NCBI GenBank assembly: GCA_003141715.1
Contig: PLNF01000096.1
Coordinates: 2,365-66,364, forward strand
DNA: 64,000 nt
Reading direction: 5' to 3'
From: Bacteroidales bacterium
GTDB taxonomy: Bacteria > Bacteroidota > Bacteroidia > Bacteroidales > VadinHA17
Below are positions 38,429 through 48,344 of this stretch, piece by piece (the first letter of the stretch is position 1; each line of letters starts with the position of its first letter). The position numbers and the translations under genes were made by a program. The notes under the pieces are model-generated. The model saw only the letters and a program-made list of their open reading frames with translations, was not told where the DNA came from and did not search any database.

Positions 38429-39127
38429 TCATCTCCTGTTCCTTCCTTCTTTACCAAGCCACAGTAATGCGTCTATAATCAATTTATCCTGCATTTCATT
38501 ATTAAAGGTAAAGGAAAGTTCCTTATCGGTTTTATTCTCATAGTCAAGGTCGTTATGGCCCATATTCACATACAACATTTTATAGTTTTTATTTGTCCAT
38601 ACAACAGGGTAATAGCCACTATGCCATATCTCGTAAAGTTTAGGTCCCGTTCCAAGCGGGAAACTTGTTGAGTCAATTGATAGAAGAATTTGAATATCAG
38701 GGTTTTTTCTTAAGTCATTTTTCCAGCTATACCATTCATTAGGTGATGAAATAAAAGTATCAGGCAGGTTTTTGGTGGAAGGATGATTATGGTTCTCCAC
38801 CTTTAAGACCGCTGATGTTGGCCGCCATGTGTTTCCTTTATATTCTCCCGAGCCAAGAAATTGGTTATGGTACCAATCCCAATTCTGGGGAAATGCGGAA
38901 GGGGTAAGTGCAAAACCGGCAAAATGAAATCCAATCCAGGCGCCTCCATTCTCCATATATTCTCTGAATGCATTTCTCTGTGCCGCAGAATCAGGTCTCG
39001 TATCAAGAAAAATTACTACCTGGTATTTAGCAAGGAACCGGGTATTCATATCATTCCAGTTATTTGTCGAATCGTAGATGAAGTCGTATCTGGCAGCCAT
39101 TTTAGTAAACCATTTGTTCGCCTCATG
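38429..39127 (-). pseudogene. C-terminal 232 codons of a ThuA-like gene split by the mobile element
   Basis: The frame of ORF 38429..39100 stays open upstream with no start (..SIVIHEANKWFTK-MAARYDF..). VVIFLDTRPD...GGAWIGFHFAG...HPSTKNLP fits the ThuA-like fold. The N-terminal part of the gene lies at 47945..48112. Confidence 0.75.
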
Positions 39128-39178
39128 TATGACAATTGAATAATATGTTTATCTTCGCATAACCAATAATGAGATAAA

Positions 39179-40615
39179 ATGAAAAAAGCAGTCAGTTACA
39201 TTCGAATCAGTAGTGACAAGCAGGATAATCAGAGACAAATACAAGACATTGAGAACTTTTGTAAAAAAGAAGATTATAAGATTGTCAGAGAAGCATTTTC
39301 AGAAACAAAGTCAGGCACAATCAAAAAGCGTCCAGTAGTACTGGAAATGTTGAAATATGTTGATGACAATCAGATTAAATATATTATCATCAGTGAGGTT
39401 AGCAGGTTAGGCAGACAGAATGAAATCATAACTATAATTGAAGACTTGACAGCCAAAAAGGTATGCGTTATATTTTTAAAAGAAAACCTTTATAGTCTGA
39501 ACATAGATGGTAGTATAAATCAGACAACAGCATTGATGATAAACATTCTGGCAGCAATGGCAAAAGCAGAGGTTGAAACCCTTAGTTATAGAATTAATTC
39601 TGGAAAGACTTTTGCCATCATAAATAAACAACATTGGCATGGAACACGGAATTATCCAGTCGGATATCAGTCAGTAGATAAAAAATTAGTTATAAATCCA
39701 AGTGAAGTGCCGACAGTAAAGTTAATTTTTTCGAAATATTTAGATGGTTGGGGAGCAGTTAAAATATGCAATTATTTAGACTCATTGAAAATCCTGACAA
39801 GAAGTGCAATTAATGGTAAAAAGATAAATCATAAATGGGACGTGGGAACTCTGAAACAAATACTTAGAAGCAAGTTATATATTGGTGAAAGATTATGGGA
39901 TAAGAAGTATTATCATGTACCAGACTTGAGAATCATAGATGACATAACCTTTAATAAAGTACAACAAAGATTAAAACTCCGGCACAATAACTCGCCTGCA
40001 TTCTCAAAAACAAGGAAGTATGAATACCTTTTTGATAGCAGAATGATTAAATGTAAAGTCTGTGACAAGTATTATTATGGTGAAAAAAGGTATAATGAGT
40101 ATAAGTGCATCAGTGGTAGAAATCATAAAGGTTGTCAGAATCCTGCAATTAAAATGAATTACATTGAACATAATATCCTGTTATATTTATTGGAGCATTG
40201 GAGTGACTTACTATCAGATGATGATAATACACAACAAGACGCATTGAAAATAGAGTTAGTATTACAGCAACAAGAACATGATAAGACACTCCAAAGGTTA
40301 GAAAGGATTAATGAGTTATACATTGATTCTAAGTACTCAAAGTCAGAACATCAGTTAAAGACTCAGCAGACAACAGAAGTACTTGAGAAGATTCAGCAGA
40401 ACATCAGTACTATTGAAGATAAGATGACAACTCTTGACATCAGTACATCAGTATTGAAACAGGAATACAACATCAAAGGTGAATCAGTTGAGTTACAAGC
40501 AACATTCAGTAAAGAAGTCTTACATAAAATCATTCATAGTATTAATGTTAGTATGGTTGATGATAAGCAAAGCATTGAAGTCTTATTAGTCAATAGACAA
40601 TCATTCACACTATAA
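39179..40615 (+). CDS. Large serine recombinase (integrase)
   Basis: 478-aa ORF. It has an N-terminal resolvase domain (AVSYIRISSDKQDNQRQ with the catalytic Ser, VSRLGRQ), a recombinase domain, a zinc ribbon (CKVCDKYYYG...YKCISGRNHKGC) and a C-terminal coiled coil. Confidence 0.9.
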   Translation: MKKAVSYIRISSDKQDNQRQIQDIENFCKKEDYKIVREAFSETKSGTIKKRPVVLEMLKYVDDNQIKYIIISEVSRLGRQNEIITIIEDLTAKKVCVIFLKENLYSLNIDGSINQTTALMINILAAMAKAEVETLSYRINSGKTFAIINKQHWHGTRNYPVGYQSVDKKLVINPSEVPTVKLIFSKYLDGWGAVKICNYLDSLKILTRSAINGKKINHKWDVGTLKQILRSKLYIGERLWDKKYYHVPDLRIIDDITFNKVQQRLKLRHNNSPAFSKTRKYEYLFDSRMIKCKVCDKYYYGEKRYNEYKCISGRNHKGCQNPAIKMNYIEHNILLYLLEHWSDLLSDDDNTQQDALKIELVLQQQEHDKTLQRLERINELYIDSKYSKSEHQLKTQQTTEVLEKIQQNISTIEDKMTTLDISTSVLKQEYNIKGESVELQATFSKEVLHKIIHSINVSMVDDKQSIEVLLVNRQSFTL

Positions 40616-40771
40616 TGCATTGATAATTAACAAACAAGGGGATAGCCGGTCCATACCTACGAGCATGCCTTCAAACCACAGTGGCTCTCTTCTTACACTA
40701 ATTACTATTTTTATAATATATTTTTTAATATAGGGGGGATAATGACTATTCTTATAGTCATTATATGCATT

Positions 40772-41086
40772 CACACACAAAAAGGTATAAACGTCCCGTT
40801 ATAGTATATATTATTATATATATATATTATTATCAGTTAGTTAACAACGGGACAAAAGACGGGACATGGACGGGACACAACGGGACATAATATTAATAAG
40901 TAATATATATTATTAATTATCAAAGGATTAATAACGGGACATATTATTAACGGGACATATTATTAAAACGTCCCGTTGTGTCCCGTCCATGTCCCGTCTT
41001 TTGTCCCGTTGTTACAATCTTAATAATCAGTACATTATATTTATTAACGGGACATTTATGCCCAAACGGGACATTTTTTGTGTGTG
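40772..41086. repeat. Iteron/palindrome array: 13 copies of CGGGAC, including a perfect 44-bp inverted repeat
   Basis: Arm A (40843..40886) is aacaacgggacaaaagacgggacatggacgggacacaacgggac. Arm B (40970..41013) is its exact reverse complement. Two aacgggacatattatt direct repeats lie between the arms. Outer inverted pair: cacacacaaaaa (40772) and tttttgtgtgtg (41075). A (TA)n-rich tract lies at 40801..40836. Confidence 0.9.
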
Positions 41087-41287
41087 GGAGTATATTTTCA
41101 TACATAAAGTCATAAAATATTTATGAAGTAGAAATAAAATATGTTTGACAACATAAAATGAAAATAATGGGTAGTCATTATCAGGTAGTTAGCATTTTAA
41201 TTAAAAAATAACATAAATATTTTTAAAAAAGATTCAAGATTTTTAAATGAATAACGTATTTACTTAAAAGATCAGTAATGATTTTTT

Positions 41288-41329
41288 CCCCTGTGGCTGG
41301 TCGTAACCTGCCAGCCACACAAAAAGGGG
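41288..41329. promoter_or_regulatory. Hairpin plus GGTTAC triplet upstream of the ATPase gene
   Basis: tgtggctgg (41292-41300) pairs with ccagccaca (41311-41319), flanked by cccc and gggg. The loop carries gtaacc, and aggttacaaaa recurs at 41335 and 41368, the latter abutting the ATG at 41378. Confidence 0.5.
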
Positions 41330-41377
41330 TTAAAAGGTTACAAAAAATAATAGGTTTAGAGTAAAACAGGTTACAAA

Positions 41378-42541
41378 ATGAGTAGTTTAGAATTAAGTGG
41401 TGAAACAACCACAAGCACAGGAGACACAAAAAGTCTTTTTTACAACAGGCAAGAAGCAAAGCCAAGTAGAAAAAAAATAATTGAATTACCAACATTCAAA
41501 GTACAGACAATGGAGAATGCCTTTAAAGACATAGCACCAACAGTCAAAAATCAAAAAAATATTTTTGGTGACTTAATTGCAGAAGGCGATTTATGCATAT
41601 TATTCGGGAGAGCAGGTACAGGCAAGAGTTTTTTAGGATATCAAATAGCCGGAGCAATAGCAGAGGGTAAAAATGTATTGGATATGCTGGATATTATGGT
41701 TGATAGAAGTACAAGAAAATATCATAATCTTAATAATGAAACTCCGGCACAAAAAGTCCTTTATGCCGATTTTGAAGCAACGATTGAGAAGACTTACAGA
41801 AGATACAATCCATATACATTCAGTGAAAACTTCCTGATAGCAATTCCAGACAGATTAACAGTGGTTGATAATTTACTTTTTATTGACAGTATTGAAGCAG
41901 AAATTATAAAAACAGGTGCAAAAGTATTGATCATAGACAATATATCAGCAATCTCTCAAGACAATGAAAAGAGCAATCAGGCAGCAAAATTAATGAATAA
42001 AATTAAGGACTTGCAGAGACGAAATAAATTAACAGTATTAATAATGGCTCACACTCCAAAAATACAACAGGGAGAAGCAATTATATGGACAAATATGGCA
42101 GGGTCTTCGAATCTTTACAACCTTGCTGAAAGTATACTGGCAATAGGTACTACAACCATTGACAATGATATCAGGTATATAATACAACTAAAAGCACGAT
42201 ATGTTGACGTATTATATCATAAAGACAACGTTATAGCCATAAAGTTTAGGACACAACCAGACGGCAATAAAGGATTTTCTTTTGTGAATTATGAAAGTGA
42301 AGAAGAACTCATAAAGACAGTTGAAAAAAGCAGAAAAGAAGCACAAAAAAAAGACATTATAAATAGAATTAATATGTTTGGTACGAAACCTGCGGACATT
42401 GCTGAAGAATTATATGAAAAGTATTATCCAGAACATGAGATAACTTTAATTACTTATAAAGACACTATTAAAAAGGCAGTCCAGCGACTAAAGAAGTCAG
42501 GACTTATAAATAATGATGAAGATAATACCTCAGTACAATGA
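41378..42541 (+). CDS. RecA/RepA-like P-loop ATPase (AAA_25-type, putative replicative helicase or loader)
   Basis: 387-aa ORF with Walker A GRAGTGKS and Walker B VLIIDNISAI. This layout is typical of ATPases paired with primases in mobile elements. Confidence 0.7.
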   Translation: MSSLELSGETTTSTGDTKSLFYNRQEAKPSRKKIIELPTFKVQTMENAFKDIAPTVKNQKNIFGDLIAEGDLCILFGRAGTGKSFLGYQIAGAIAEGKNVLDMLDIMVDRSTRKYHNLNNETPAQKVLYADFEATIEKTYRRYNPYTFSENFLIAIPDRLTVVDNLLFIDSIEAEIIKTGAKVLIIDNISAISQDNEKSNQAAKLMNKIKDLQRRNKLTVLIMAHTPKIQQGEAIIWTNMAGSSNLYNLAESILAIGTTTIDNDIRYIIQLKARYVDVLYHKDNVIAIKFRTQPDGNKGFSFVNYESEEELIKTVEKSRKEAQKKDIINRINMFGTKPADIAEELYEKYYPEHEITLITYKDTIKKAVQRLKKSGLINNDEDNTSVQ

Positions 42542-43506
42542 AAGCAATAGAAGTAGAATTATTCCCGAAAGTTAACGATAGAAGTACGCACAGCGTACAA
42601 TCATTAGAAAGATTACTAAAATGGACGACAACAAATACAGCATTACAGGTAAAAACTTCTTCTTATAGACAGTTTTTAAATGAAAATCCCAATGCCACAC
42701 CAAAAGAAAAAAGTGATAAGAAGTTATATTATTTTCCTGCCATAACCTTTAGCGGGACTTTTAGCGGGACTGGTACAGCAAAAGACATAATAAAAATGAG
42801 TGGACTCATAGTACTGGACTTCGATCATATTGATAATTTTAAAAACGTTTATGAGCAACTTAAAAATGATAATTTAACACACTTACTGTTTGTCAGTCCA
42901 AGTGGTGACGGCTTAAAACTGGTAGTAAAACACAACTTGAAAGATGCTCTGAAATGGCAAACATTATATTATGAATTAGAAGATTCGTACTTAAAAAGAT
43001 TTGAATTACAGACAGACAAGTCAGGTAAAGACATAAATCGAATGTGTTTTCTTCCTTATATGGATACATTATATCAGAATGATAAAAGTGTTACATGGGA
43101 GTTTAAAGGGGATTTTGAGAATAAAAAAGTGAGAGTGTATAGGGTAGATGAACCAAGTAGTGAGTTAAATGAACCAAGTAACTTAGTTAAAGAATGCCTG
43201 TATATAGCACAATATCTTTTCGAAAATCATATTAACATAACAGACACTTATTCTGACTGGATATCTTATGGATTTAGTTTATGTGAATTAGGTGAAGAAG
43301 GGAGAGCAATTTATCATATTATCAGTAGTGTTAGTCTTAAATATGACGAAGACACTATTAATAAAGAATATGATTATATGATGACGAATTATGACGAAGA
43401 TAAATCAGGGATTGAGAATTATATCAGCAATGGTAAAAAAGCGATAGCAGACTATTGTTTATATAAAAAATATGGCTTCTTAGCCGATAAAAATAATATT
43501 ATTTAA
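42538..43506 (+). CDS. Archaeo-eukaryotic-type primase (BT4734/VirE-N-like domain + PriCT-like C-terminus)
   Basis: 322-aa ORF whose start overlaps the ATPase stop (ATGA). IVLDFDHI (DxD), VSPSGDGLKLVV (sGxGxK/H) and NRMCFLPY motifs are present. The C-terminal WISYGFSLCELGEEG is PriCT-like. Confidence 0.7.
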   Translation: MKAIEVELFPKVNDRSTHSVQSLERLLKWTTTNTALQVKTSSYRQFLNENPNATPKEKSDKKLYYFPAITFSGTFSGTGTAKDIIKMSGLIVLDFDHIDNFKNVYEQLKNDNLTHLLFVSPSGDGLKLVVKHNLKDALKWQTLYYELEDSYLKRFELQTDKSGKDINRMCFLPYMDTLYQNDKSVTWEFKGDFENKKVRVYRVDEPSSELNEPSNLVKECLYIAQYLFENHINITDTYSDWISYGFSLCELGEEGRAIYHIISSVSLKYDEDTINKEYDYMMTNYDEDKSGIENYISNGKKAIADYCLYKKYGFLADKNNII

Positions 43507-43518
43507 AATTTAAAAGCA

Positions 43519-43710
43519 ATGAAAAAACAAGTAAAGTACATTAGAGGCAGTTATAATGTAACGCCTAAAGTAAACCCAAAAAATAAAAAATTTATATTGA
43601 ATTGTGATGCAGTCTTCTTAGAAAGATTGAAACAAATTAAAACCATGAAAAAAATGAGTATATCAGCGTATATTAGAAATCTTGTGAATCAAGATTATCC
43701 AAATATTTAA
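43519..43710 (+). CDS. Small ribbon-helix-helix-like protein
   Basis: 63-aa ORF. FILNCDAVFLERLKQ...MSISAYIRNLVNQDY resembles the CopG/RHH strand-helix-helix layout. Confidence 0.4.
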   Translation: MKKQVKYIRGSYNVTPKVNPKNKKFILNCDAVFLERLKQIKTMKKMSISAYIRNLVNQDYPNI

Positions 43711-43761
43711 ATAAATAAAACTGATTGACAGTCAGTTTTTAATATTAATAAAATTTAAAAT

Positions 43762-44196
43762 ATGAAACAATTAGCAATTGAGCAAATTAATGACTCACGA
43801 ATCAAAAAACAATTGATTGAACATAATGCCAGTAAAACAGAAATGGCAATCATTTTGAATAACACTTTTATATATAATCATTCGATTGAAGAAATTATTA
43901 CTGGTAAAATTGATGATTTTAGGACAATTAATTTAATTTTTCAGATGAACGCACAAATTATGAAACAATTAGAAATGCTTAGTAAGCGTAATGAGCGTAA
44001 AACTAAAGAAATAAACAGACATGAAGAAATCCAAGAAAAGCAAAAAATAATGGAGAAAATCAGATTAGAAAAATTAAAAAATGAAAAAATAAAATTAGAT
44101 ATGAAAAGTCCTGCACAGAATCCTAAAAAAAAGGAGAGTCAAATTAATAAAATGTTTAGAGAAATGAATGAAAAATTTCCTAATGAATGTAAATAA
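43762..44196 (+). CDS. Hypothetical coiled-coil protein
   Basis: 144-aa ORF with a Lys/Glu-rich helical C-terminal half. Confidence 0.4.
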   Translation: MKQLAIEQINDSRIKKQLIEHNASKTEMAIILNNTFIYNHSIEEIITGKIDDFRTINLIFQMNAQIMKQLEMLSKRNERKTKEINRHEEIQEKQKIMEKIRLEKLKNEKIKLDMKSPAQNPKKKESQINKMFREMNEKFPNECK

Positions 44197-44536
44197 CACA
44201 AATAATTATAAATAAAAGTGACTAAGTATAGGGGTATTTTTAGATCGAGTTTCCTAAAACTCGCAAATGCCCATTACAAGCCAAAGTATTATATAAAAGG
44301 GGGTAGTTAAGGGGTTAGTCATGGCAAGGCCATGAAATCCTTAAATGTACCCCTTTAATATAATTCTTATACATTGCTCCGGTCATTTTTAATACGCATA
44401 TCCGCACTAAATGCCAAAGTATATATAAAATTTGACTAAAAACCCTGTTTTTCAGATCATGAACTCAATGTACATGAAATATTTATTATTTTAATTATAT
44501 TATGTACATTAGATCATAATCTCAGCGACTTGACAA

Positions 44537-44575
44537 TAAAAATGAGTCACCAATTCGATGACTCATTCTGTTTTT
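44537..44575. terminator. Bidirectional terminator hairpin inside the element
   Basis: aatgagtca (44541-44549) pairs with tgactcatt (44559-44567). An A-run lies on the left and a T-run on the right. It sits 65 nt beyond the stop of the minus-strand lipoprotein gene. Confidence 0.65.
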
Positions 44576-44631
44576 AATATGTTTCATGTGCCCAAATAAG
44601 GCAACCATATCATTCTTTTGAGACTTTACTT

Positions 44632-45498
44632 TTAATACGGGATTTGAGTTACAGTCATTGAAGCAGGTAAAGTCATGTTGAAAGTTACGCCAAGAGCACC
44701 AATTACCCAATAGCAATTACCCATTACCATACCTGTAAAAGGTTTGGTCGTACATGCACCGCCAGCGACAATATATAAATCCAGACTTGTAGAAACATAA
44801 CTTGTATAAGCATAGTGAAAAGTACCGCTTGTAAAAAATAAGTTATGTTGTGCACTACCTGAATAATAATCGACAATAGTCGCAGGAGCATCAATAATGA
44901 TAAGAGCATCCAAAAACGTACCAGTTAAAACAACAGGAGTCCCGTTTATGACGGTTGACGGCATGTTGATACCGATATCCATGACATTGTTGAATTTATA
45001 AGTCTTAGCAGCCATATCCGTTGTCGTGAAAGTGACGTTATACGTGCCGGGTGTGACGGTCATCGTTACAGTACCCGCAAGCAACTGAGCGACAGTTACG
45101 TTTTGAGTATAAGTATTTAAGGCATTCGTCACCTTTAATTGATAAGGAGTCGTACTATAAGCGATTACCCATGTTGCAGGGTCATAACCTTTACCCAGAG
45201 AATATTCTTTTGTCAGAGGTTCAAGACTAAATGATTGAGTTACCATTTCTTGTTTTTGTGGGGGTACTGTCAGAGGTTCGTCATACTTTTGACAACCATA
45301 ACCAAAAGTCATTAGCAGTATTAGTGCAGCACCAATAGTCTTAGCCAATTTTTTACCCATAGAATTTTCGATTATTTTTAATTTTCTCAGGACACTTTTT
45401 TTAAAGTCCGTAAAGTTTTGAGGTTTGTCATGCCCAAGAAACGCATACTGTTTCTGAACATCGAGAATCTCATCGAAGTTTTGTTTTTTTGATACCAT
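44632..45498 (-). CDS. Element-encoded putative lipoprotein (beta-rich, Thr/Val-rich)
   Basis: 288-aa ORF. The internal methionine at 45360 gives MGKKLAKTIGAALILLMTFGYGC, a lipoprotein signal with lipobox Cys. That methionine is the likelier start. Confidence 0.55.
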   Translation of the reverse strand: MVSKKQNFDEILDVQKQYAFLGHDKPQNFTDFKKSVLRKLKIIENSMGKKLAKTIGAALILLMTFGYGCQKYDEPLTVPPQKQEMVTQSFSLEPLTKEYSLGKGYDPATWVIAYSTTPYQLKVTNALNTYTQNVTVAQLLAGTVTMTVTPGTYNVTFTTTDMAAKTYKFNNVMDIGINMPSTVINGTPVVLTGTFLDALIIIDAPATIVDYYSGSAQHNLFFTSGTFHYAYTSYVSTSLDLYIVAGGACTTKPFTGMVMGNCYWVIGALGVTFNMTLPASMTVTQIPY

Positions 45499-45557
45499 TT
45501 TCTTTCATTTTTTAACATCCCATTATTTTTAATATGTCAGCCAGATGCGAATCTGTT

Positions 45558-46103
45558 TTATGCTGATATTTTTTTATGTGCTTCATAATATGCCTTTCGT
45601 TCTGCTTTATGTGCTTCATAATATGCCTTTATATATGTCTTACGTTCTTTTTTATGTGCTTCTCTATATGCTTTTTTATGTGCCTTTCCTTTTGGAGTAT
45701 TATAATATTTTTTTTGATATTCTTTTTGATATTCTTTTCTTTCTTCCTTTTCTTCTGGTGTTAATCTTTTTCCACCACCTTTACCACCCTCACCACCTTT
45801 AAATTTATTTAATAAATTCCAGCCAATACTTTTATAATGAGCAATAGTTAAAATTTCATTAATCTGCCATTGGTAAAGGTTGAGTTCTATATTAAATTCG
45901 TCACCACATCTGTTCAGTTCGACTATCAGAGGTTTTAATCCTTTTGACAGTATTCCGTCTATAACTAATTTTACCCTTTTATTTGTCTTACTATTATGAA
46001 TATAATTCCATAGTCTTACTTTTAATTTTAAGATAGTGTCACCAATGACTATTGGTTCTAAAGTCTGAGGATGAATAATTAAATATGTTTTATGTATAAT
46101 CAT
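45558..46103 (-). CDS. GIY-YIG-like nuclease with a Lys/Tyr/His-rich repeat tail
   Basis: 181-aa ORF. TYLIIHPQTLEPIVIGDT...RLWNYIH fits the GIY-(10)-YIG...R...H pattern, and QINEILTIAHYKSIGWNLLN fits E...GYN. The tail has KAY(Y/R)EAHK(A/K)ERK repeats. Confidence 0.5.
   Translation of the reverse strand: MIIHKTYLIIHPQTLEPIVIGDTILKLKVRLWNYIHNSKTNKRVKLVIDGILSKGLKPLIVELNRCGDEFNIELNLYQWQINEILTIAHYKSIGWNLLNKFKGGEGGKGGGKRLTPEEKEERKEYQKEYQKKYYNTPKGKAHKKAYREAHKKERKTYIKAYYEAHKAERKAYYEAHKKISA
45574..45737. repeat. Degenerate 24-33-bp coding repeats (ttatgtgcttcataatatgcctt) plus a 12-bp duplicate
   Basis: Identical 23-mers occur at 45574 and 45607, with weaker copies near 45650 and 45674. tttttgatattc x2 occurs at about 45711. 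Confidence 0.8.
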
Positions 46104-46248
46104 TTTTTATCTTTTTATATAAATAGTTGAAAATCTCAGAGAATCTTCTGAAAGTCGAAAATAAATATTGAAAATGCTCCCGTAGAAAAATAATGCAGAC
46201 TATTTATTAGTATAGCATTTTAGAATAACAGTATTAAAAATCAGAATT

Positions 46249-46569
46249 ATGACAGACATTGAAAAAATAGTTACAGCGTACGTGAACCAGACTCATGGCA
46301 TGTACACACGTGAATACATTCGTGAACAAATAATGGAGTTACAAAAAGCCAATATTGAGAACAAATTAGACGAAAACAGAGGTATAAAAAGTATTGATAT
46401 GAATCGTGAATACGCTGACATACCATCGCACACAAAATTTACTAAGGAGTACATGGAAAGACGTGCCAGAGAAGACGCAGAAGCACCCGCAAGAGAAGAA
46501 GAAGAACTCATGATAAAATTGAGACTCAAATACAACGGTAGAACAACAAAGTCACCGTATTTTCAGTAA
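46249..46569 (+). CDS. Hypothetical protein
   Basis: 106-aa ORF, charged and helical, with no motif I recognise. Confidence 0.4.
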   Translation: MTDIEKIVTAYVNQTHGMYTREYIREQIMELQKANIENKLDENRGIKSIDMNREYADIPSHTKFTKEYMERRAREDAEAPAREEEELMIKLRLKYNGRTTKSPYFQ

Positions 46570-46597
46570 AAATAACTTTTAATTAAAAATATATAAT

Positions 46598-47530
46598 ATG
46601 CATTACAAATTATTAAAACGACAAATACAGGCAATATTGCCAATGACAGCAAGTGTTACAGATGAAATCGTACAAGAAGCACTGACTTTACAAGAAAATT
46701 ACAAATTTAACATGGCATTGACAGCCAGACAGGTTGACGTACAAGCAAGTTTTTATAATCATACCATTAGTCAGTTAAAGACAGATCAGGACAGTTTTTT
46801 ATGTAAAAAATATATAAGATTAATGGAGTCCAGAACAGCGTTTAAAATTCAGAATTTTAATGAACAAATAACAGGGTCACAAGAGGCAATCATGGTACAA
46901 ATTAATGAAGTTATTGAGGAATATATTGACAAAAACTTTAATGATTTGCGACTGTTTATCAGAGACAAGCAACCAATTTTTGAACGTACTTATAATGCAA
47001 TTAATAATTATTTAGAAAGTAATGTAAGTACCAGACATGGTATAAGTATTGACGGATTAATAATGACTAAATCCAAAGACAGAGAAAAGTTTTTGTCACA
47101 GTACCTTTTTGATTTTAAAAAAGACGACAGGAATATAATGGAAATTTATGAGATAATTGAAGGAATTAAGGCATTCGGTTTGAAATACGGAGTTTATAAT
47201 CCGACAATATTGATACAAGGGTTAATGTTTAACATGATGAATGATGATAAAGATGCAAGTTTGCAGAAAATAAATAATTGGTTAATGAGTGTTGAAGCAG
47301 ACAGACATGATATCGCAGTCATGGAACAACAACGTGCAAAAGAGAATCAGAAGAAAGAAGAACAGGCAAAGGAACGCAAGAGATTGAGTGACAAAAAGAA
47401 TGCAGACGAGAACAAAGCAGAACAACAGCATCGTGACGAAAGACTGAAGACAGGTAAAGAACAATTTAATGCAAATGATGCATTTCAGAAGATTTTACAA
47501 GCAAATAGATTAAATCAGATTAATAATTAA
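46598..47530 (+). CDS. Hypothetical protein with a highly charged C-terminus
   Basis: 310-aa ORF. I see no relaxase, capsid or portal motif. The last 70 or so residues are Lys/Glu/Gln-rich. Confidence 0.45.
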   Translation: MHYKLLKRQIQAILPMTASVTDEIVQEALTLQENYKFNMALTARQVDVQASFYNHTISQLKTDQDSFLCKKYIRLMESRTAFKIQNFNEQITGSQEAIMVQINEVIEEYIDKNFNDLRLFIRDKQPIFERTYNAINNYLESNVSTRHGISIDGLIMTKSKDREKFLSQYLFDFKKDDRNIMEIYEIIEGIKAFGLKYGVYNPTILIQGLMFNMMNDDKDASLQKINNWLMSVEADRHDIAVMEQQRAKENQKKEEQAKERKRLSDKKNADENKAEQQHRDERLKTGKEQFNANDAFQKILQANRLNQINN

Positions 47531-47535
47531 TTATT

Positions 47536-47706
47536 ATGAATACAGAAGATAAACAGATTAGACAGTACTCAATGAGGTTGACAGAAAGTGAATACCAGAT
47601 GTTTGAGGTAGTGAGAAAGAAATATAAAAACTTTAAAAAACTTTTGATTAATTATATCATGTACCAATACATTACTATATTAGATGATAAGGTTGATAAG
47701 AAGTAA
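47536..47706 (+). CDS. Small ORF (56 aa), MobC/RHH-like
   Basis: Below the track cutoff and found by eye: MNTEDKQIRQYSMRLTESEYQMFEVVRKKYKNFKKLLINYIMYQY.... The RLTxxEYxxx pattern recalls relaxosome accessory and RHH proteins. Confidence 0.3.
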   Translation: MNTEDKQIRQYSMRLTESEYQMFEVVRKKYKNFKKLLINYIMYQYITILDDKVDKK

Positions 47707-47799
47707 AATATTAATATAGTGTTTTTCTCTTTTCACTCCAAAAAAGGGACTCAATTATTTTTCGGTGGTTAGTTACTTCTCCACTGTTTTGTAAGTGTC

Positions 47800-47833
47800 G
47801 GGGGTTGCTGTAAAGTCACAACCCCCTTTTTTT
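47800..47833 (+). terminator. Rho-independent terminator near the right end of the element
   Basis: gggggttg-ctgtaaagtca-caaccccc followed by T7. Confidence 0.8.
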
Positions 47834-47944
47834 AATATAGGATATGCGTGTGAGTACTGAACAGGGAATAACAGACTTCTGATACCCCAAGACTATGACA
47901 TGCCTTTAAATCGCTTAGAAATGCCCATCTTTTAATTTTGCCTT

Positions 47945-48112
47945 ATGAACGAAACTAATATGCGCCTTGTCGTTTTTAGCAGTGTAAAAGGCTATCGCTT
48001 TGAATTTTGGGGTCACCTTCTTTTCTATCCCTGAACAAACCAGGGAAATAAATAAAAAGGAGAATACAATTGTCTGAAATCCTATCTTTTTGATTCTATT
48101 TAATCTTAACAT
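47945..48112 (-). pseudogene. N-terminal 56 codons of the split ThuA-like gene
   Basis: ORF 47915..48112 encodes MLRLNRIKKIGFQTIVFSFLFISLVCSG...KAIAFYTAKNDKAHISFVH. It then reads 9 element-derived residues and stops. It joins in frame to 39127 at the shared His codon. Confidence 0.75.
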
Positions 48113-48344
48113 TGTGCAGGGTATTTGAAATATTGATATTGGTAAAGAGAATTCGTTGCATAATACGACCAGAAGGATGGACCACTTTCTACAAAACAGA
48201 CTGGCACATTCTTAATAAAGGTTTTTAGCCAGGTTGAACAGTAATCCATTCCGGCCTCTTCTGAAGCAAAATTAAAAGAAAAACGGGAAAGTCCGAACAG
48301 ACTTTATATATTTACGTCTTAGCTTCCTAATCAGTACACTTTTA

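What the first reader, a model, noticed from the sequence alone, without database searches (positions are those of the whole stretch)
40772..41086. Dense CGGGAC iteron array built as a perfect 44-bp inverted repeat: putative origin of replication of the element
- **Count (seen):** the hexamer CGGGAC/GTCCCG occurs 13 times in about 280 bp, 8 forward and 5 reverse.
- **Inverted repeat:** four forward copies at a pitch of 10-12 bp form arm A (40843..40886). Their exact reverse complement forms arm B (40970..41013).
- **Between the arms:** two aacgggacatattatt direct repeats.
- **Outside the arms:** further copies at 40793, 41048 and 41067, and an inverted pair cacacacaaaaa / tttttgtgtgtg.
- **AT-rich tract:** an almost pure (TA)n tract at 40801..40836 lies next to the array and looks like a DNA-unwinding element.
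- **Position:** the array sits between the recombinase gene and the ATPase-primase operon.
- **Inference:** helically phased iterons next to an AT-rich tract and replication genes are the classic signature of an initiator-dependent origin. The long perfect palindrome could also extrude as a cruciform or serve as a single-strand origin.
Basis: partly seen in the sequence, partly recalled or inferred. Interest (0 to 1): 0.75.

Follow-up and report, generated by a model that had tools for sequence, protein, structure and literature searches.

The report
Replication origin of a mobile element
A mirror-symmetric cluster of 13 copies of the DNA word CGGGAC beside an easily melted AT-rich stretch is very probably the replication start site of an 8.8-kb mobile element; the same layout recurs beside replication genes in related elements, phage satellites and phages.

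Summary
CGGGAC occurs 13 times in 40793..41072 (8 forward, 5 reverse; Poisson P about 1e-26). Four-site arms 40842-40886 and 40970-41014 form an exact 45-bp inverted repeat.

The array lies in an 8,820-bp element that splits a ThuA gene. The element encodes a serine recombinase, an SF4-type (AAA_25) ATPase and an AEP primase.

Comparative evidence supports the origin reading:
- Eleven loci (nine distinct sequences) with 57-87% identical ATPases, L007 showing part of it, keep the layout: inverted site(s), a TA-rich tract, then four GGGACA at 12/11/10 pitch (13/11/10 in L010). Nine also keep an opposed set of three to five sites.
- The integrase upstream varies between serine and tyrosine types, or is absent.
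- More distant ATPase relatives carry arrays of other words, usually starting at the ATPase stop codon.
- Two phage ATPases are 93% identical but differ in the C-terminal HTH. Their repeats differ too (TGGGACA versus CGATACA).
- A search for the array's exact pitch in viral contigs found it beside unrelated primase or helicase genes.
- The two least stable 40-mers of the element flank arm A.

Not supported: cruciform or single-strand origin, because exact arm symmetry is unique to this copy.

The closest known design is the PICI/SaPI origin, so this is a new variant of a known kind. Replication itself is untested.

The parts
39125..47947 (.). Integrated element of 8,820 bp, including one copy of the 3-bp core ATG at each junction. 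It splits a ThuA-family gene. Junctions read gcctcATGta (left) and gccttATGaa (right).
   Evidence: ThuA C-part is at 38429..39100(-) and the N-part at 47915..48112(-). Joining them at the ATG core gives one uninterrupted 287-aa ORF. GC is 0.27-0.34 inside the element and 0.37-0.41 outside.
39179..40615 (+). Large serine recombinase (integrase of the element).
   Evidence: Pfam Resolvase, Recombinase and Zn_ribbon_recom; PHROG integrase at 4e-76.
40772..40783 (+). Outer inverted-repeat arm cacacacaaaaa. Its partner is at 41075-41086. It is shared only with the closest relative, L006.
   Evidence: (I8).
40793..40798 (-). Left outlying site (GTCCCG), 55 nt before arm A. It corresponds to the GGGACAAATTGTCCC mini-palindrome of relatives.
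40799..40841 (.). TA-rich tract, the proposed DNA-unwinding element. It includes TATCAGTTAGTTA (40831-40843), which matches the IHF-type consensus WATCAANNNNTTR with one mismatch.
   Evidence: It holds the least stable 40-mer of the element. The 50 nt left of arm A are 88-92% A+T in all relatives. The sequence ATAATAATCAATAAGTTAACAA is conserved.
40842..40886 (+). Arm A: four ACGGGACA sites at 40848, 40860, 40871 and 40881 (pitch 12/11/10).
   Evidence: The pitch is identical in 9 of the 10 relatives scored; L010 has 13/11/10.
40887..40969 (.). Central 83-nt spacer, 82% A+T, with two direct AACGGGACATATTATT sites (40935, 40951). It contains the second least stable 40-mer (40886-40925).
40970..41014 (-). 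Arm B: four sites at 40970, 40980, 40991 and 41003, the exact reverse complement of arm A.
41048..41072 (+). Two right outlying sites (41048, 41067). The equivalent in relatives is a single GGGACAAATGG.
41075..41086 (+). Outer inverted-repeat arm tttttgtgtgtg, partner of 40772-40783.
41140..41147 (+). The only Bacteroidota-type -7 box (TAnnTTTG: TATGTTTG) on the + strand between the two genes. It is the candidate promoter of the ATPase-primase operon.
   Evidence: The consensus is recalled from general knowledge, and no -33 TTTG was found.
41288..41374 (+). Conserved 5' leader of the ATPase gene, a separate element and not part of the array. It has a hairpin (CCCC, stem 41293-41300 / 41311-41318, GGGG). 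The loop GTAACC (41303-41308) is complementary to two downstream GGTTAC copies (41336-41341 and 41369-41374, the second abutting the ATG).
   Evidence: 12 pairs, 4 with compensatory changes. Loop and downstream words covary in three versions. The leader stays next to the ATG in L004, where the array has moved.
41378..42541 (+). SF4/RecA-type ATPase (Pfam AAA_25), the putative replicative helicase and initiator. It has a C-terminal three-helix domain (residues about 315-373), the proposed reader of the sites.
   Evidence: Pfam. The profile hits the T7 gp4 helicase at 1.3e-8 and RSF1010 RepA at 1.8e-3. AF2 model pLDDT is 79.5. Top Foldseek hits are T7 gp4, T4 gp41, DnaB, KaiC and RadA. Distant homologues have Pfam-detectable HTH domains at the same position.
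42538..43506 (+). Archaeo-eukaryotic-type primase (BT4734-like N domain plus PriCT_2). Its start overlaps the ATPase stop codon.

Best explanation
The array is the vegetative replication origin (oriV) of an 8.8-kb integrative element. It is a new variant of the design known from phage-inducible chromosomal islands.

Shown by sequence comparison:
- The cis-acting array is conserved.
- It stays linked to the ATPase-primase genes.
- The repeat word varies with the ATPase lineage.
- The array sits next to the least stable DNA of the element.

Inferred mechanism:
1. After excision by the serine recombinase, the element's SF4-type ATPase binds the ACGGGACA sites through its C-terminal helical domain.
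2. The four sites of each arm have a 12/11/10-bp pitch, about one helical turn, so they present on one face of the DNA. Each arm nucleates one ring.
3. Because the arms point in opposite directions, two rings would load in opposite orientation, allowing bidirectional replication.
4. Melting starts in the TA-rich tract left of arm A and/or in the AT-rich spacer between the arms.
5. The co-transcribed AEP primase makes the first primers, and host polymerase takes over.

The outlying sites near the candidate promoter may also let the initiator regulate its own operon.
For: 1. The array is far beyond chance.

2. Eleven loci with 57-87% identical ATPases (nine distinct sequences; L007, cut at its contig end, shows part of it) keep the same anatomy 250-900 nt upstream of the ATPase gene: site(s) in reverse orientation, a TA-rich tract of about 50 nt, then four GGGACA at 12/11/10 pitch (13/11/10 in L010). 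Nine of them also keep an opposed set of three to five sites (only two exact sites in L013); a last downstream site follows in all but L010. Site columns are invariant while spacer columns vary.

3. The array goes with the ATPase-primase genes whatever the integrase. The window and L008 have a serine recombinase, L006 and L002 a tyrosine integrase, and in L001 a tRNA gene lies just upstream.

4. The word varies with the ATPase lineage.
- L004 (55% identity) has TGTCACA x12, placed behind the primase.
- Relatives at 28-37% identity have TGTAACA, CGTTTCA, GTGTCAA, AGACA, GTACGCA, CGATACA or TGGGACA.
- In 16 of the 19 loci checked (L004 plus these relatives) the array starts within about 100 nt of the ATPase stop codon, right after its HTH.

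5. A natural specificity swap exists. The L031 and L033 ATPases are 93% identical, with 5 differences in residues 1-292 and about 17 in the last 35 residues (the HTH). Their repeats are TGGGACA and CGATACA. Their primases differ evenly at 82% identity.

6. The module sits in elements that must replicate. L033 is a temperate phage with portal, capsid and integrase. L030 is a circular 8.7-kb element with integrase, Xis, ATPase-HTH, array, DUF6371, prohead protease, capsid and small terminase.

7. The reverse test also points to replication. Searching viral contigs for GGGAC at the exact 12/11/10 pitch gave about 9 distinct loci (GC 0.36-0.69). In 6 of these distinct loci (7 of the 13 contigs returned) the adjacent gene is a primase, helicase or replication initiator. 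The other three distinct loci had no usable neighbour: an unannotated fragment, an ORF without a family match, and a divergently oriented terminase-like gene.

8. The ATPase is a T7 gp4 / DnaB / RepA-type replicative helicase by sequence profile and by fold.

9. The two least stable 40-mers of the 8.8-kb element flank arm A.

10. The design matches what is experimentally established for PICI/SaPI origins: 6-12 penta- or hexanucleotide iterons in two opposed sets around an AT-rich region, read by the C-terminal winged helix of a self-loading helicase. A rep-ori fragment of these islands replicates autonomously (PMC9371898, PMC6092414).
Against: - There is no experimental or read-depth evidence for replication of this element or any close relative.
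- Every close relative in a contig long enough to show its flanks is integrated, and none sits on a recognised plasmid. The plasmid collection holds only 29% identical homologues, in Tn4555-like cfxA circles.
- For the window's own ATPase, DNA binding is inferred. A fold search with the C-terminal domain alone gave only non-significant winged-helix-like hits (best E 0.41).
- GGGAC arrays of the same pitch lie beside replicases whose C-termini do not resemble one another. Who reads GGGACA is therefore not settled.
- The array lies upstream of the operon and 70-90 nt from a candidate promoter, so a purely regulatory role is not excluded.
- In the window and L006 the ATPase lacks the long acidic-ended tail of the other relatives.
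- Proteins of Tn4555 and NBU1 beyond integrase and excisionase have been linked to excision rather than replication (PMC5704250).
Confidence: 0.72

Rival explanations
1. The array is an operator only. The sites bind a repressor or the ATPase itself to control transcription of the ATPase-primase operon, and replication, if any, starts elsewhere.
For: - The array lies upstream of the operon.
- Two outlying sites (41048, 41067) sit 70-90 nt from the only TAnnTTTG box.
- Initiators of iteron replicons commonly autoregulate (general knowledge).
- The element encodes small RHH-like proteins.
Against: - The distance from array to ATG varies from about 270 to 600 nt, because some relatives carry a roughly 300-nt insert in between.
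- In L004 the array lies behind the primase, and in distant relatives it lies 3' of the ATPase gene.
- The same array sits at the 3' end of unrelated replicase genes in phages.
- The RHH ORF is found in only 2 relatives.
- Thirteen sites in two mirrored sets next to a conserved TA tract is not an operator layout.
Confidence: 0.1
2. The array is an accessory site for excision or integration. The ATPase-primase proteins would assemble on it to stimulate recombination, as suggested by the extra genes needed for excision of Tn4555 and NBU1.
For: - The IME review reports that Tn4555 needs an additional protein, and NBU1 a large region, for excision (PMC5704250).
- A Tn4555-like circle carries a 29% identical ATPase with a 3+3 inverted TGGGACA cluster.
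Against: - The array is 1.7 kb from the left junction and 6.9 kb from the right junction.
- It is kept with serine recombinases, with tyrosine integrases, and next to a tRNA gene.
- It occurs next to replicases in phages.
- Assays that score 'excision' by detecting circles cannot separate excision from replication of the circle (inference).
Confidence: 0.06
3. The array is a partition centromere or a packaging (pac) site: a helically phased repeat array bound by an adaptor protein, as in R1 parC/ParR or in small-terminase binding sites.
For: - Two blocks of repeats at about 11-bp pitch resemble parC of plasmid R1 (general knowledge).
- Two RHH-like small ORFs are present.
- L030 encodes a small terminase.
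Against: - The element has no ParA, ParM or TubZ gene and no terminase.
- The arms are inverted rather than direct.
- Across all relatives the array is linked to the helicase gene, not to any partition or packaging gene.
Confidence: 0.05
4. The 45-bp perfect palindrome acts through DNA or RNA secondary structure, as an extruded cruciform, a single-strand origin or a structured transcript.
For: - The arms are exact reverse complements over 45 nt in the window.
Against: - In relatives with mirrored pitch, the spacer bases of the two arms are only 28-50% alike. Other relatives have unequal arm lengths or pitch.
- There is no compensatory pattern.
- The arms are 83 nt apart.
- Rfam finds nothing in the region.
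Confidence: 0.03

Closest known systems
PICI/SaPI replication origins, with the Rep self-loading helicase and its C-terminal winged helix (PMC9371898, PMC6092414)
   Same: - Short penta- to octanucleotide iterons, 6-12 or more copies.
- At least two sets pointing in opposite directions around an AT-rich stretch.
- The origin is next to the helicase-initiator and primase genes of a small integrative element.
- Iteron word and C-terminal DNA-binding domain change together (seen here in L031 versus L033).
- One distant relative (L030) is built like a capsid-forming PICI.
   Different: - The helicase here is SF4/RecA-type (AAA_25, like T7 gp4, DnaB and RSF1010 RepA), not the SaPI Rep lineage.
- In the window's family the array lies 5' of the helicase gene rather than immediately 3'.
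- The layout is a fixed 4+4 mirrored set with a 12/11/10 pitch plus outlying sites.
- The integrase is a large serine recombinase.
- No helper phage, packaging or interference genes were recognised.
Satellite phage P4 ori/crr with the alpha protein (primase, helicase and C-terminal DNA-binding domain); general knowledge, and mentioned in PMC6092414
   Same: - Octamer-type iterons are read by the C-terminal domain of the replicase.
- A second cis site exists, like crr. L031 has a second GGGACA cluster 3.5 kb away.
   Different: - P4 alpha is a single fused polypeptide with an SF3 helicase.
- The iteron word and layout differ.
- The window has only one array.
Polyomavirus (SV40) core origin with large T antigen (general knowledge)
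   Same: - Pentanucleotide sites are arranged as inverted sets.
- The sites are flanked by an AT tract.
- The sites are read by an origin-binding domain attached to a hexameric helicase, which loads as two opposed rings.
   Different: This is a functional analogy only. SV40 uses an SF3 helicase, has 4 sites within 27 bp, and is a eukaryotic virus. There is no homology.
IncQ plasmid RSF1010 oriV with RepA, RepB' and RepC (PMC8567376 and general knowledge)
   Same: - The SF4 RepA-type helicase is a weak profile match to 1g8y.
- The helicase is paired with an AEP-related primase, giving host-independent priming.
- The origin has iterons and an AT-rich region.
   Different: - RSF1010 has 3.5 direct 20-bp iterons read by a separate RepC protein, plus ssiA/ssiB hairpins.
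- No RepC-like gene is present here.
- The conserved hairpin here follows the ATG, not the array.
Bacteroides mobilizable transposon Tn4555 (cfxA) and NBU-type elements (PMC5704250)
   Same: - A homologous ATPase (29% identity) with a C-terminal HTH is followed by a primase-like gene.
- It carries a 3+3 inverted TGGGACA cluster with the same core word.
   Different: - The Tn4555 cluster is small, with 6 sites, a 13-nt centre and no TA tract.
- It lies inside the 3' end of the ATPase ORF.
- The element has a tyrosine integrase, a relaxase and cargo genes.
- Replication of its circle has not been studied.

Membership tests
PICI/SaPI-type origin | Multiple short (5-8 bp) iterons, six or more copies | tested here: met
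   13 copies of CGGGAC with consensus aACGGGACAta.
PICI/SaPI-type origin | At least two iterons on each side of an AT-rich region, pointing in opposite directions | tested here: met
   The site at 40793(-) and the four (+) sites of arm A flank the TA tract. Arms A(+) and B(-) flank an 82% A+T spacer. Both AT stretches are the least stable DNA of the element.
PICI/SaPI-type origin | Origin lies immediately 3' of the rep (helicase-initiator) gene | tested here: not met
   In the window and its close relatives the array is 270-900 nt 5' of the ATPase gene. The feature is met in 16 of the 19 loci checked (L004 plus the distant relatives).
PICI/SaPI-type origin | Initiator is a helicase with a C-terminal winged-helix or HTH domain whose specificity matches the iterons | tested here: inconclusive
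   The helicase fold is confirmed. The model shows a C-terminal three-helix domain, but the domain-only fold search was not significant. Covariation of HTH and repeat word is shown only for the distant pair L031/L033.
PICI/SaPI-type origin | Rep belongs to the SaPI Rep helicase lineage | tested here: not met
   Pfam gives AAA_25. The profile and Foldseek hit T7 gp4, DnaB, gp41 and RSF1010 RepA, all SF4/RecA-type.
PICI/SaPI-type origin | A rep-ori fragment drives autonomous replication, and Rep binds and melts the origin | not testable with these tools
   Needs cloning, EMSA and permanganate footprinting.
Classical iteron plasmid origin (Rep_3 / RepA winged-helix initiators) | Tandem direct repeats of 17-22 bp | tested here: not met
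   The units are 6-8 bp at a 10-12 bp pitch and form inverted sets.
Classical iteron plasmid origin (Rep_3 / RepA winged-helix initiators) | A Rep_3-type initiator gene next to the iterons | tested here: not met
   No such Pfam, PHROG or NCBIfam hit in any ORF of the element.
IncQ (RSF1010) oriV | A separate RepC iteron-binding initiator, plus ssiA/ssiB primase hairpins within the origin | tested here: not met
   No RepC-like gene was found. The one conserved hairpin (41288-41329) stays with the ATPase start codon when the array moves in L004, so it is not part of the origin.
parC/ParR-type plasmid centromere | Repeat array adjacent to a par operon (ParM/ParA NTPase plus an adaptor) | tested here: not met
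   The element has no partition NTPase. Across relatives the array is linked to the helicase gene.
Attachment or arm-type sites of the element's recombinase | Located at the element ends, and specific to the recombinase family | tested here: not met
   The junctions are at 39125-39127 and 47945-47947. The same array occurs with serine and with tyrosine recombinases.

The most novel reading that the evidence does not exclude
A portable origin cassette exists: inverted GGGACA site(s), a 45-55-bp AT-rich tract, then four GGGACA at a fixed 12/11/10-bp pitch. It is shared by at least four unrelated replicase architectures across bacterial phyla:
- AAA_25 helicase with an HTH;
- fused primase and AAA_25;
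- Prim-Pol/PriCT_1 proteins;
- DUF927 helicases.

In Bacteroidota it would mark a large, uncharacterised family of SF4 helicases that load themselves through a C-terminal DNA-binding domain. If so, integrative 'mobilizable transposons' of the Tn4555/NBU type, and small elements like this one, replicate autonomously after excision, and their iterons define incompatibility or specificity groups.
Probability: 0.4. Interest if true: 0.7.

Novelty: new variant of a known kind. Interest (0 to 1): 0.55.

Why it matters
- **An open question becomes testable.** How excised integrative and mobilizable elements are maintained is explicitly described as unexplored (PMC5704250). This locus gives a compact replicon candidate: a 390-bp array plus two genes.
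- **A simple predictor across the family.** The family reaches from environmental Bacteroidota elements to the cfxA transposon Tn4555, capsid-forming satellite-like circles and temperate phages. In all of them, a short-repeat array next to an AAA_25-HTH gene is a candidate marker of the origin.
- **A natural experiment on specificity.** The L031/L033 pair differs in HTH and repeat word and little else. It is a ready-made test of how these helicases recognise their origins.
- **A structural question.** The fixed 12/11/10 pitch recurs beside unrelated replicases. That pitch may reflect how a ring helicase is assembled on duplex DNA.
- **A practical use.** Such a minimal replicon could serve as a vector backbone for Bacteroidota.

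Tried and rejected
- **RNA gene or structured transcript.** Rfam with permissive thresholds found nothing in 39000-48300. The arm complementarity is not conserved.
- **Sigma-70 promoters and terminators.** Matches in 40400-41600 are at the chance level, 7 found against 7.2 expected. Only one Bacteroidota-type -7 box was found.
- **att site of the recombinase.** Rejected once the junctions were mapped in the split ThuA gene.
- **RHH proteins as readers.** orf63 has detectable homologues only in L006 and L012. orf56 has none. The two are unrelated to each other.
- **Intragenic CGGGAC pair (42753, 42765).** It is a coding repeat (FSGTFSGT) without the array's flanking consensus.
- **Hairpin 41288-41329 as an ssi-like part of the origin.** Rejected because it stays at the ATPase start codon in L004, where the array has moved.
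- **Autonomous plasmids with close homologues.** None were found. The plasmid collection holds only 29% identical ATPases in Tn4555-like circles, and the phage collection only unannotated 29% hits.
- **Domain-only structure prediction and fold search of the ATPase C-terminus.** Winged-helix-like folds lead the list but none is significant.
- **Element type.** Pfam, PHROGs and NCBIfam gave no function for the seven remaining ORFs. Whether the element is a satellite or an integrative plasmid stays open.
- **Primary papers.** The Tn4555 and NBU1 excision papers are not in the held library.
- **Prior descriptions.** Literature searches found no earlier description of GGGAC iterons or of this Bacteroidota module.
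Full report
**1. The observation**

CGGGAC or its complement occurs at 40793(-), 40848, 40860, 40871, 40881, 40935, 40951 (+), 40970, 40980, 40991, 41003 (-), and 41048, 41067 (+). That is 13 copies in 280 bp, 8 forward and 5 reverse. The whole window has 26 copies against 7.5 +/- 2.9 in dinucleotide shuffles. At the density seen outside the array, P(>=13 in 280 bp) is about 1e-26.

They extend to 60 nt at 92% complementarity. The site pitch is 12/11/10 in arm A and the mirror image in arm B. The per-site consensus is aACGGGACAta.

The two AACGGGACATATTATT repeats, the outlying sites and the outer cacacacaaaaa / tttttgtgtgtg pair are all present. The 'TA tract' is A+T-rich rather than a strict TA repeat.

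**2. Context: an 8.8-kb integrated element**

A ThuA-family gene is split. Its C-terminal part is at 38429..39100(-) and its N-terminal part at 47915..48112(-). Joining them at a shared ATG core (39125-39127 and 47945-47947) restores one 287-aa ORF.

The 8,820-bp insert has lower GC than its flanks. It encodes:
- a large serine recombinase (39179..40615);
- an AAA_25 ATPase (41378..42541);
- an AEP primase with BT4734-like N and PriCT_2 domains (42538..43506);
- seven ORFs without recognisable function.

The array is therefore internal, 1.7 kb from the left junction. It is not an attachment site.

**3. What the ATPase is**

A profile of 41 homologues hits the T7 gp4 helicase domain (1.3e-8) and RSF1010 RepA (1.8e-3) among solved structures.

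An AlphaFold model (pLDDT 79.5) has a RecA core followed by three C-terminal helices. Its best structural matches are T7 gp4, T4 gp41, DnaB, KaiC and RadA.

It is an SF4-type, ring-forming helicase-like ATPase with an extra C-terminal helical domain. In distant homologues Pfam recognises canonical HTH domains at that position (HTH_23, Sigma70_r4_2, HTH_7, HTH_38). For the window's own domain, a fold search gave only non-significant winged-helix-like matches. Its DNA-binding role is therefore an inference.

**4. Comparative test in close relatives**

I fetched loci encoding ATPase homologues from genomes, metagenomes and viral contigs.

Eleven loci with 57-87% identical ATPases (nine distinct sequences), among them L007 where the contig end cuts the array, have the same structure 250-900 nt upstream of the ATPase gene. 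In order, it consists of:
- a GGGACAAATTGTCCC mini-palindrome, reduced to a single reverse site in the window, L006 and L010;
- a TA-rich tract of about 50 nt with the conserved sequence ATAATAATCAATAAGTTAACAA;
- four GGGACA sites at 12/11/10 pitch (13/11/10 in L010);
- an A+T-rich spacer of 48-93 nt with 0-2 sites;
- an opposed set of three to five sites in nine of the loci (L013 keeps only two exact sites there);
- a last GGGACAAATGG, absent in L010.

Site positions relative to the first site are identical (0, 10, 65, 77, 88, 98, 115) in eight of them. In the alignment the site columns are invariant and the spacers vary. Only the base 5' of GGGACA differs by subgroup: C in the window and L006, mostly G in L002, L003, L008, L009, L012 and L016, and mixed in L001, L010 and L013.

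Only the ATPase and primase are shared by all these loci. What lies upstream of the array differs:
- a large serine recombinase in the window and L008;
- a tyrosine integrase in L006, the closest relative, and in L002;
- a tRNA gene in L001.

The array belongs with the replication genes.

**5. The word varies with the ATPase lineage**

L004 (55% identity) has no GGGACA upstream. It has twelve TGTCACA sites in opposed groups around AT-rich stretches, placed just behind the primase gene.

Relatives at 28-37% identity carry dense arrays of other words:
- TGTAACA (L018, L029);
- CGTTTCA (L019-L021);
- GTGTCAA (L022, L023);
- AGACA (L026);
- GTACGCA (L030);
- CGATACA (L033);
- (T)GGGACA(A) (L025, L027, L028, L031, L032).

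In 16 of the 19 loci checked (L004 plus these relatives) the array starts within about 100 nt of the ATPase stop codon, directly after its HTH.

The clearest case is L031 versus L033. Their ATPases are 93% identical, with five differences in residues 1-292 and about seventeen in the last 35 residues, which form the HTH. Their repeats are TGGGACA and CGATACA. The adjacent primases differ evenly at 82% identity. This is the pattern expected if the C-terminal HTH reads the repeats.

**6. The module sits in replicating elements**

- L033 is a temperate phage with portal, major head protein and integrase.
- L030 assembles as a circle (123-nt terminal repeat). It carries a tyrosine integrase, Xis-like HTH_17, ATPase-HTH, the GTACGCA array, DUF6371, prohead protease, an HK97-type capsid and a small terminase. 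This is the gene set of a capsid-forming PICI-like satellite.
- In the plasmid collection the only homologues (29% identity) are in 10-12-kb cfxA circles that correspond to Tn4555. There, three TGTCCCA and three TGGGACA sites form an inverted cluster in the 3' end of the ATPase ORF.

**7. Reverse test from the DNA side**

I searched IMG/VR for GGGAC-N7-GGGAC-N6-GGGAC-N5-GGGAC. This returned 13 contigs, about nine of them distinct, with GC from 0.36 to 0.69. A pattern of 20 fixed bases is expected well under once by chance (my estimate).

These loci share features that the search did not require:
- 6-15 sites within +/-200 nt;
- in most of them, two inverted sites 45-70 nt upstream with an AT-rich stretch in between.

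Six distinct loci (seven of the 13 contigs) lie next to a replication gene:

| Locus | Neighbouring gene | Position of the array |
|---|---|---|
| L041/L045 | 728-aa primase plus AAA_25 helicase | starts at its stop codon |
| L042 | 699-aa primase/helicase | just 3' of the gene |
| L038 | 848-aa Prim-Pol/PriCT_1 protein | downstream |
| L043 | 626-aa relative of the L038 protein | downstream |
| L047 | 645-aa DUF927 primase/helicase | downstream |
| L044 | Lin1244_N replication initiator | inside the gene |

For the remaining three distinct loci the neighbour says nothing. L036 is a 1.4-kb fragment whose ORFs I did not annotate. The short ORF beside the L046 array matched no family. The only annotated neighbour in the L039/L040/L048 locus is a divergently oriented terminase-like gene.

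The helicase cores of L041 and L042 are only remotely related to the window's ATPase. The C-termini of these proteins do not resemble each other. This result strongly supports an origin function. It leaves open who reads GGGACA in those phages.

**8. Unwinding element**

With nearest-neighbour energies, the least stable 40-mer of the whole element is 40800-40839, in the TA tract left of arm A (dG -33.3; mean -46.9, sd 3.8). The second least stable is 40886-40925, between the arms. The 50 nt left of arm A are 88-92% A+T in every relative.

Matches to the IHF-type consensus WATCAANNNNTTR (recalled from general knowledge) lie in this tract in most relatives. In the window they lie at 40831 (one mismatch) and 40918.

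**9. What is not supported**

Exact arm symmetry is peculiar to this copy. Where relatives have mirrored pitch, the spacer bases of the two arms are 28-50% alike. Other relatives have unequal arms. A cruciform, single-strand origin or RNA hairpin is therefore not a conserved property. The perfect palindrome more likely reflects recent homogenisation (inference).

An operator-only role fits poorly, because the distance and even the side of the array relative to the operon vary. No partition or packaging genes are present.

**10. Mechanism proposed**

The shown parts are the conserved site array, its linkage to the helicase-primase genes, word and HTH covariation in relatives, and the adjacent unstable DNA.

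The inferred parts are as follows:
1. The ATPase binds the ACGGGACA sites through its C-terminal domain.
2. Four sites per arm, at about one helical turn apart, nucleate a ring.
3. The opposed arms load two rings in opposite orientation.
4. Melting occurs in the TA tract and/or the central spacer.
5. The AEP primase primes both strands.

The outlying sites, 70-90 nt upstream of the single TAnnTTTG box at 41140, may add autoregulation.

**11. Comparison with known systems**

The closest is the PICI/SaPI origin. It has six to twelve penta- or hexanucleotide iterons in two opposed sets around an AT-rich region, next to rep. The iterons are read by the C-terminal winged helix of a self-loading helicase, and the rep-ori fragment replicates autonomously (PMC9371898, PMC6092414). 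[quoted passage not shown]

The differences here are:
- the helicase lineage, SF4/RecA-type rather than SaPI Rep;
- the position 5' of the gene in this subfamily;
- the fixed 4+4 geometry;
- the serine recombinase.

P4 ori/crr with the alpha protein, the SV40 core origin and RSF1010 oriV are functional analogues with specific differences, listed in the tables. Kazlauskas et al. noted that RepA-type helicase domains and C-terminal winged helices accompany MGE primases, and suggested a role in origin recognition (PMC5862659). I found no description of this array or of the Bacteroidota module. [quoted passage not shown]

**12. Verdict**

The array is real, conserved and very probably the element's replication origin (confidence about 0.72). 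It is a new variant of the PICI-type origin design, driven by a different helicase class. Interest is moderate. The finding is expected in kind. It does offer a compact, testable replicon and a clean natural experiment on specificity. The unexplained recurrence of the same site and pitch beside unrelated replicases also deserves follow-up.

Noticed in passing
window 41288-41374: There is a conserved 5' leader just upstream of the ATPase start codon. It has a GC-rich hairpin with compensatory stem changes across relatives. The hairpin loop (GTAACC) is complementary to two downstream copies of GGTTAC, the second abutting the ATG. Loop and downstream words covary in three versions: GTAACC/GGTTAC, CTGACC/GGTCAG, and GGGTCTG/CAGACC in L004. 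This could be a translational switch or pseudoknot, or a three-site protein operator. No Rfam family matches.
   Followed up: partly
L036-L048 (IMG/VR contigs): The exact GGGAC 12/11/10 pitch of the window's arm A recurs in about 9 distinct viral contigs with GC from 0.36 to 0.69. In each case it comes with inverted upstream sites and an AT-rich gap. It lies beside at least four different replicase architectures: AAA_25 fusions, Prim-Pol/PriCT_1, DUF927 and a Lin1244_N initiator. Their C-termini look unrelated, so who reads GGGACA there is unexplained.
   Followed up: partly
L034 (CP103138.1) 1008-1068; also L035: A 10-kb circular cfxA record corresponding to Tn4555 carries a 29% identical ATPase. 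The 3' end of its ORF, just after the HTH, contains TGTCCCA x3 and TGGGACA x3 as an inverted cluster. This suggests that the excised Tn4555 circle may have a replication origin.
   Followed up: partly
L008 about 2320-2475; also L009, L001, L013, L010: Five relatives carry an insert of about 300 nt between the array and the ATPase leader. It holds a TAnnTTTG-type promoter box, several ACTGAAA repeats and a stem-loop followed by a T-run. It looks like a small RNA gene. It is absent from the window and has no Rfam match.
   Followed up: partly
C-termini of ATPases in L001, L009, L010, P0003, P0016, P0025, P0028: Most relatives extend the ATPase by a 70-170-aa low-complexity tail ending in ..ITD(E/N)YDDI(P)(I/Y/L). 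This resembles the acidic DDDIPF tip of bacterial SSB that recruits replisome proteins (a resemblance recalled from memory). The window's protein and that of L006 lack this tail.
   Followed up: no
L030 (IMGVR_UViG_3300012942_000311, 8,791 nt): This contig assembles as a circle (123-nt terminal repeat). It carries a tyrosine integrase, Xis-like HTH, ATPase-HTH, a GTACGCA x7 array, DUF6371, prohead protease, an HK97-type capsid and a small terminase. This is a capsid-forming, PICI-like satellite architecture in a likely Bacteroidota host.
   Followed up: partly
L031 7920-8083: A second cluster of eight (T)GGGACA sites lies 3.5 kb downstream of the one next to the ATPase gene. This is reminiscent of the ori plus crr pair of satellite P4.
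   Followed up: no
window 40831-40843, 40918-40930, 41025-41037, 41179-41191; relatives as: Matches or near-matches to the IHF-type consensus WATCAANNNNTTR sit in the AT-rich parts of the array. One (AATCAATAAGTTA) is conserved just left of arm A in most relatives. It is possibly a bending-protein site.
   Followed up: partly
window 39125-39127 and 47945-47947: The element is a precise 8,820-bp insertion into a ThuA-family gene, with a 3-bp shared core (ATG) and similar flanks (gcctcATG and gccttATG). This is consistent with serine-recombinase integration at a short crossover site.
   Followed up: yes
window 43519-47706: Seven ORFs have no family match. They include two RHH-like small proteins (63 and 56 aa), a 288-aa beta-rich protein with an N-terminal membrane segment, and a 181-aa protein with a very basic repeat-rich C-terminus (..AYYEAHKAERKAYYEAHKK). 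No relaxase, capsid or terminase was recognised, so whether the element is a satellite or an integrative plasmid is open. A strong terminator-like hairpin lies at 47800-47834 near the right end.
   Followed up: partly
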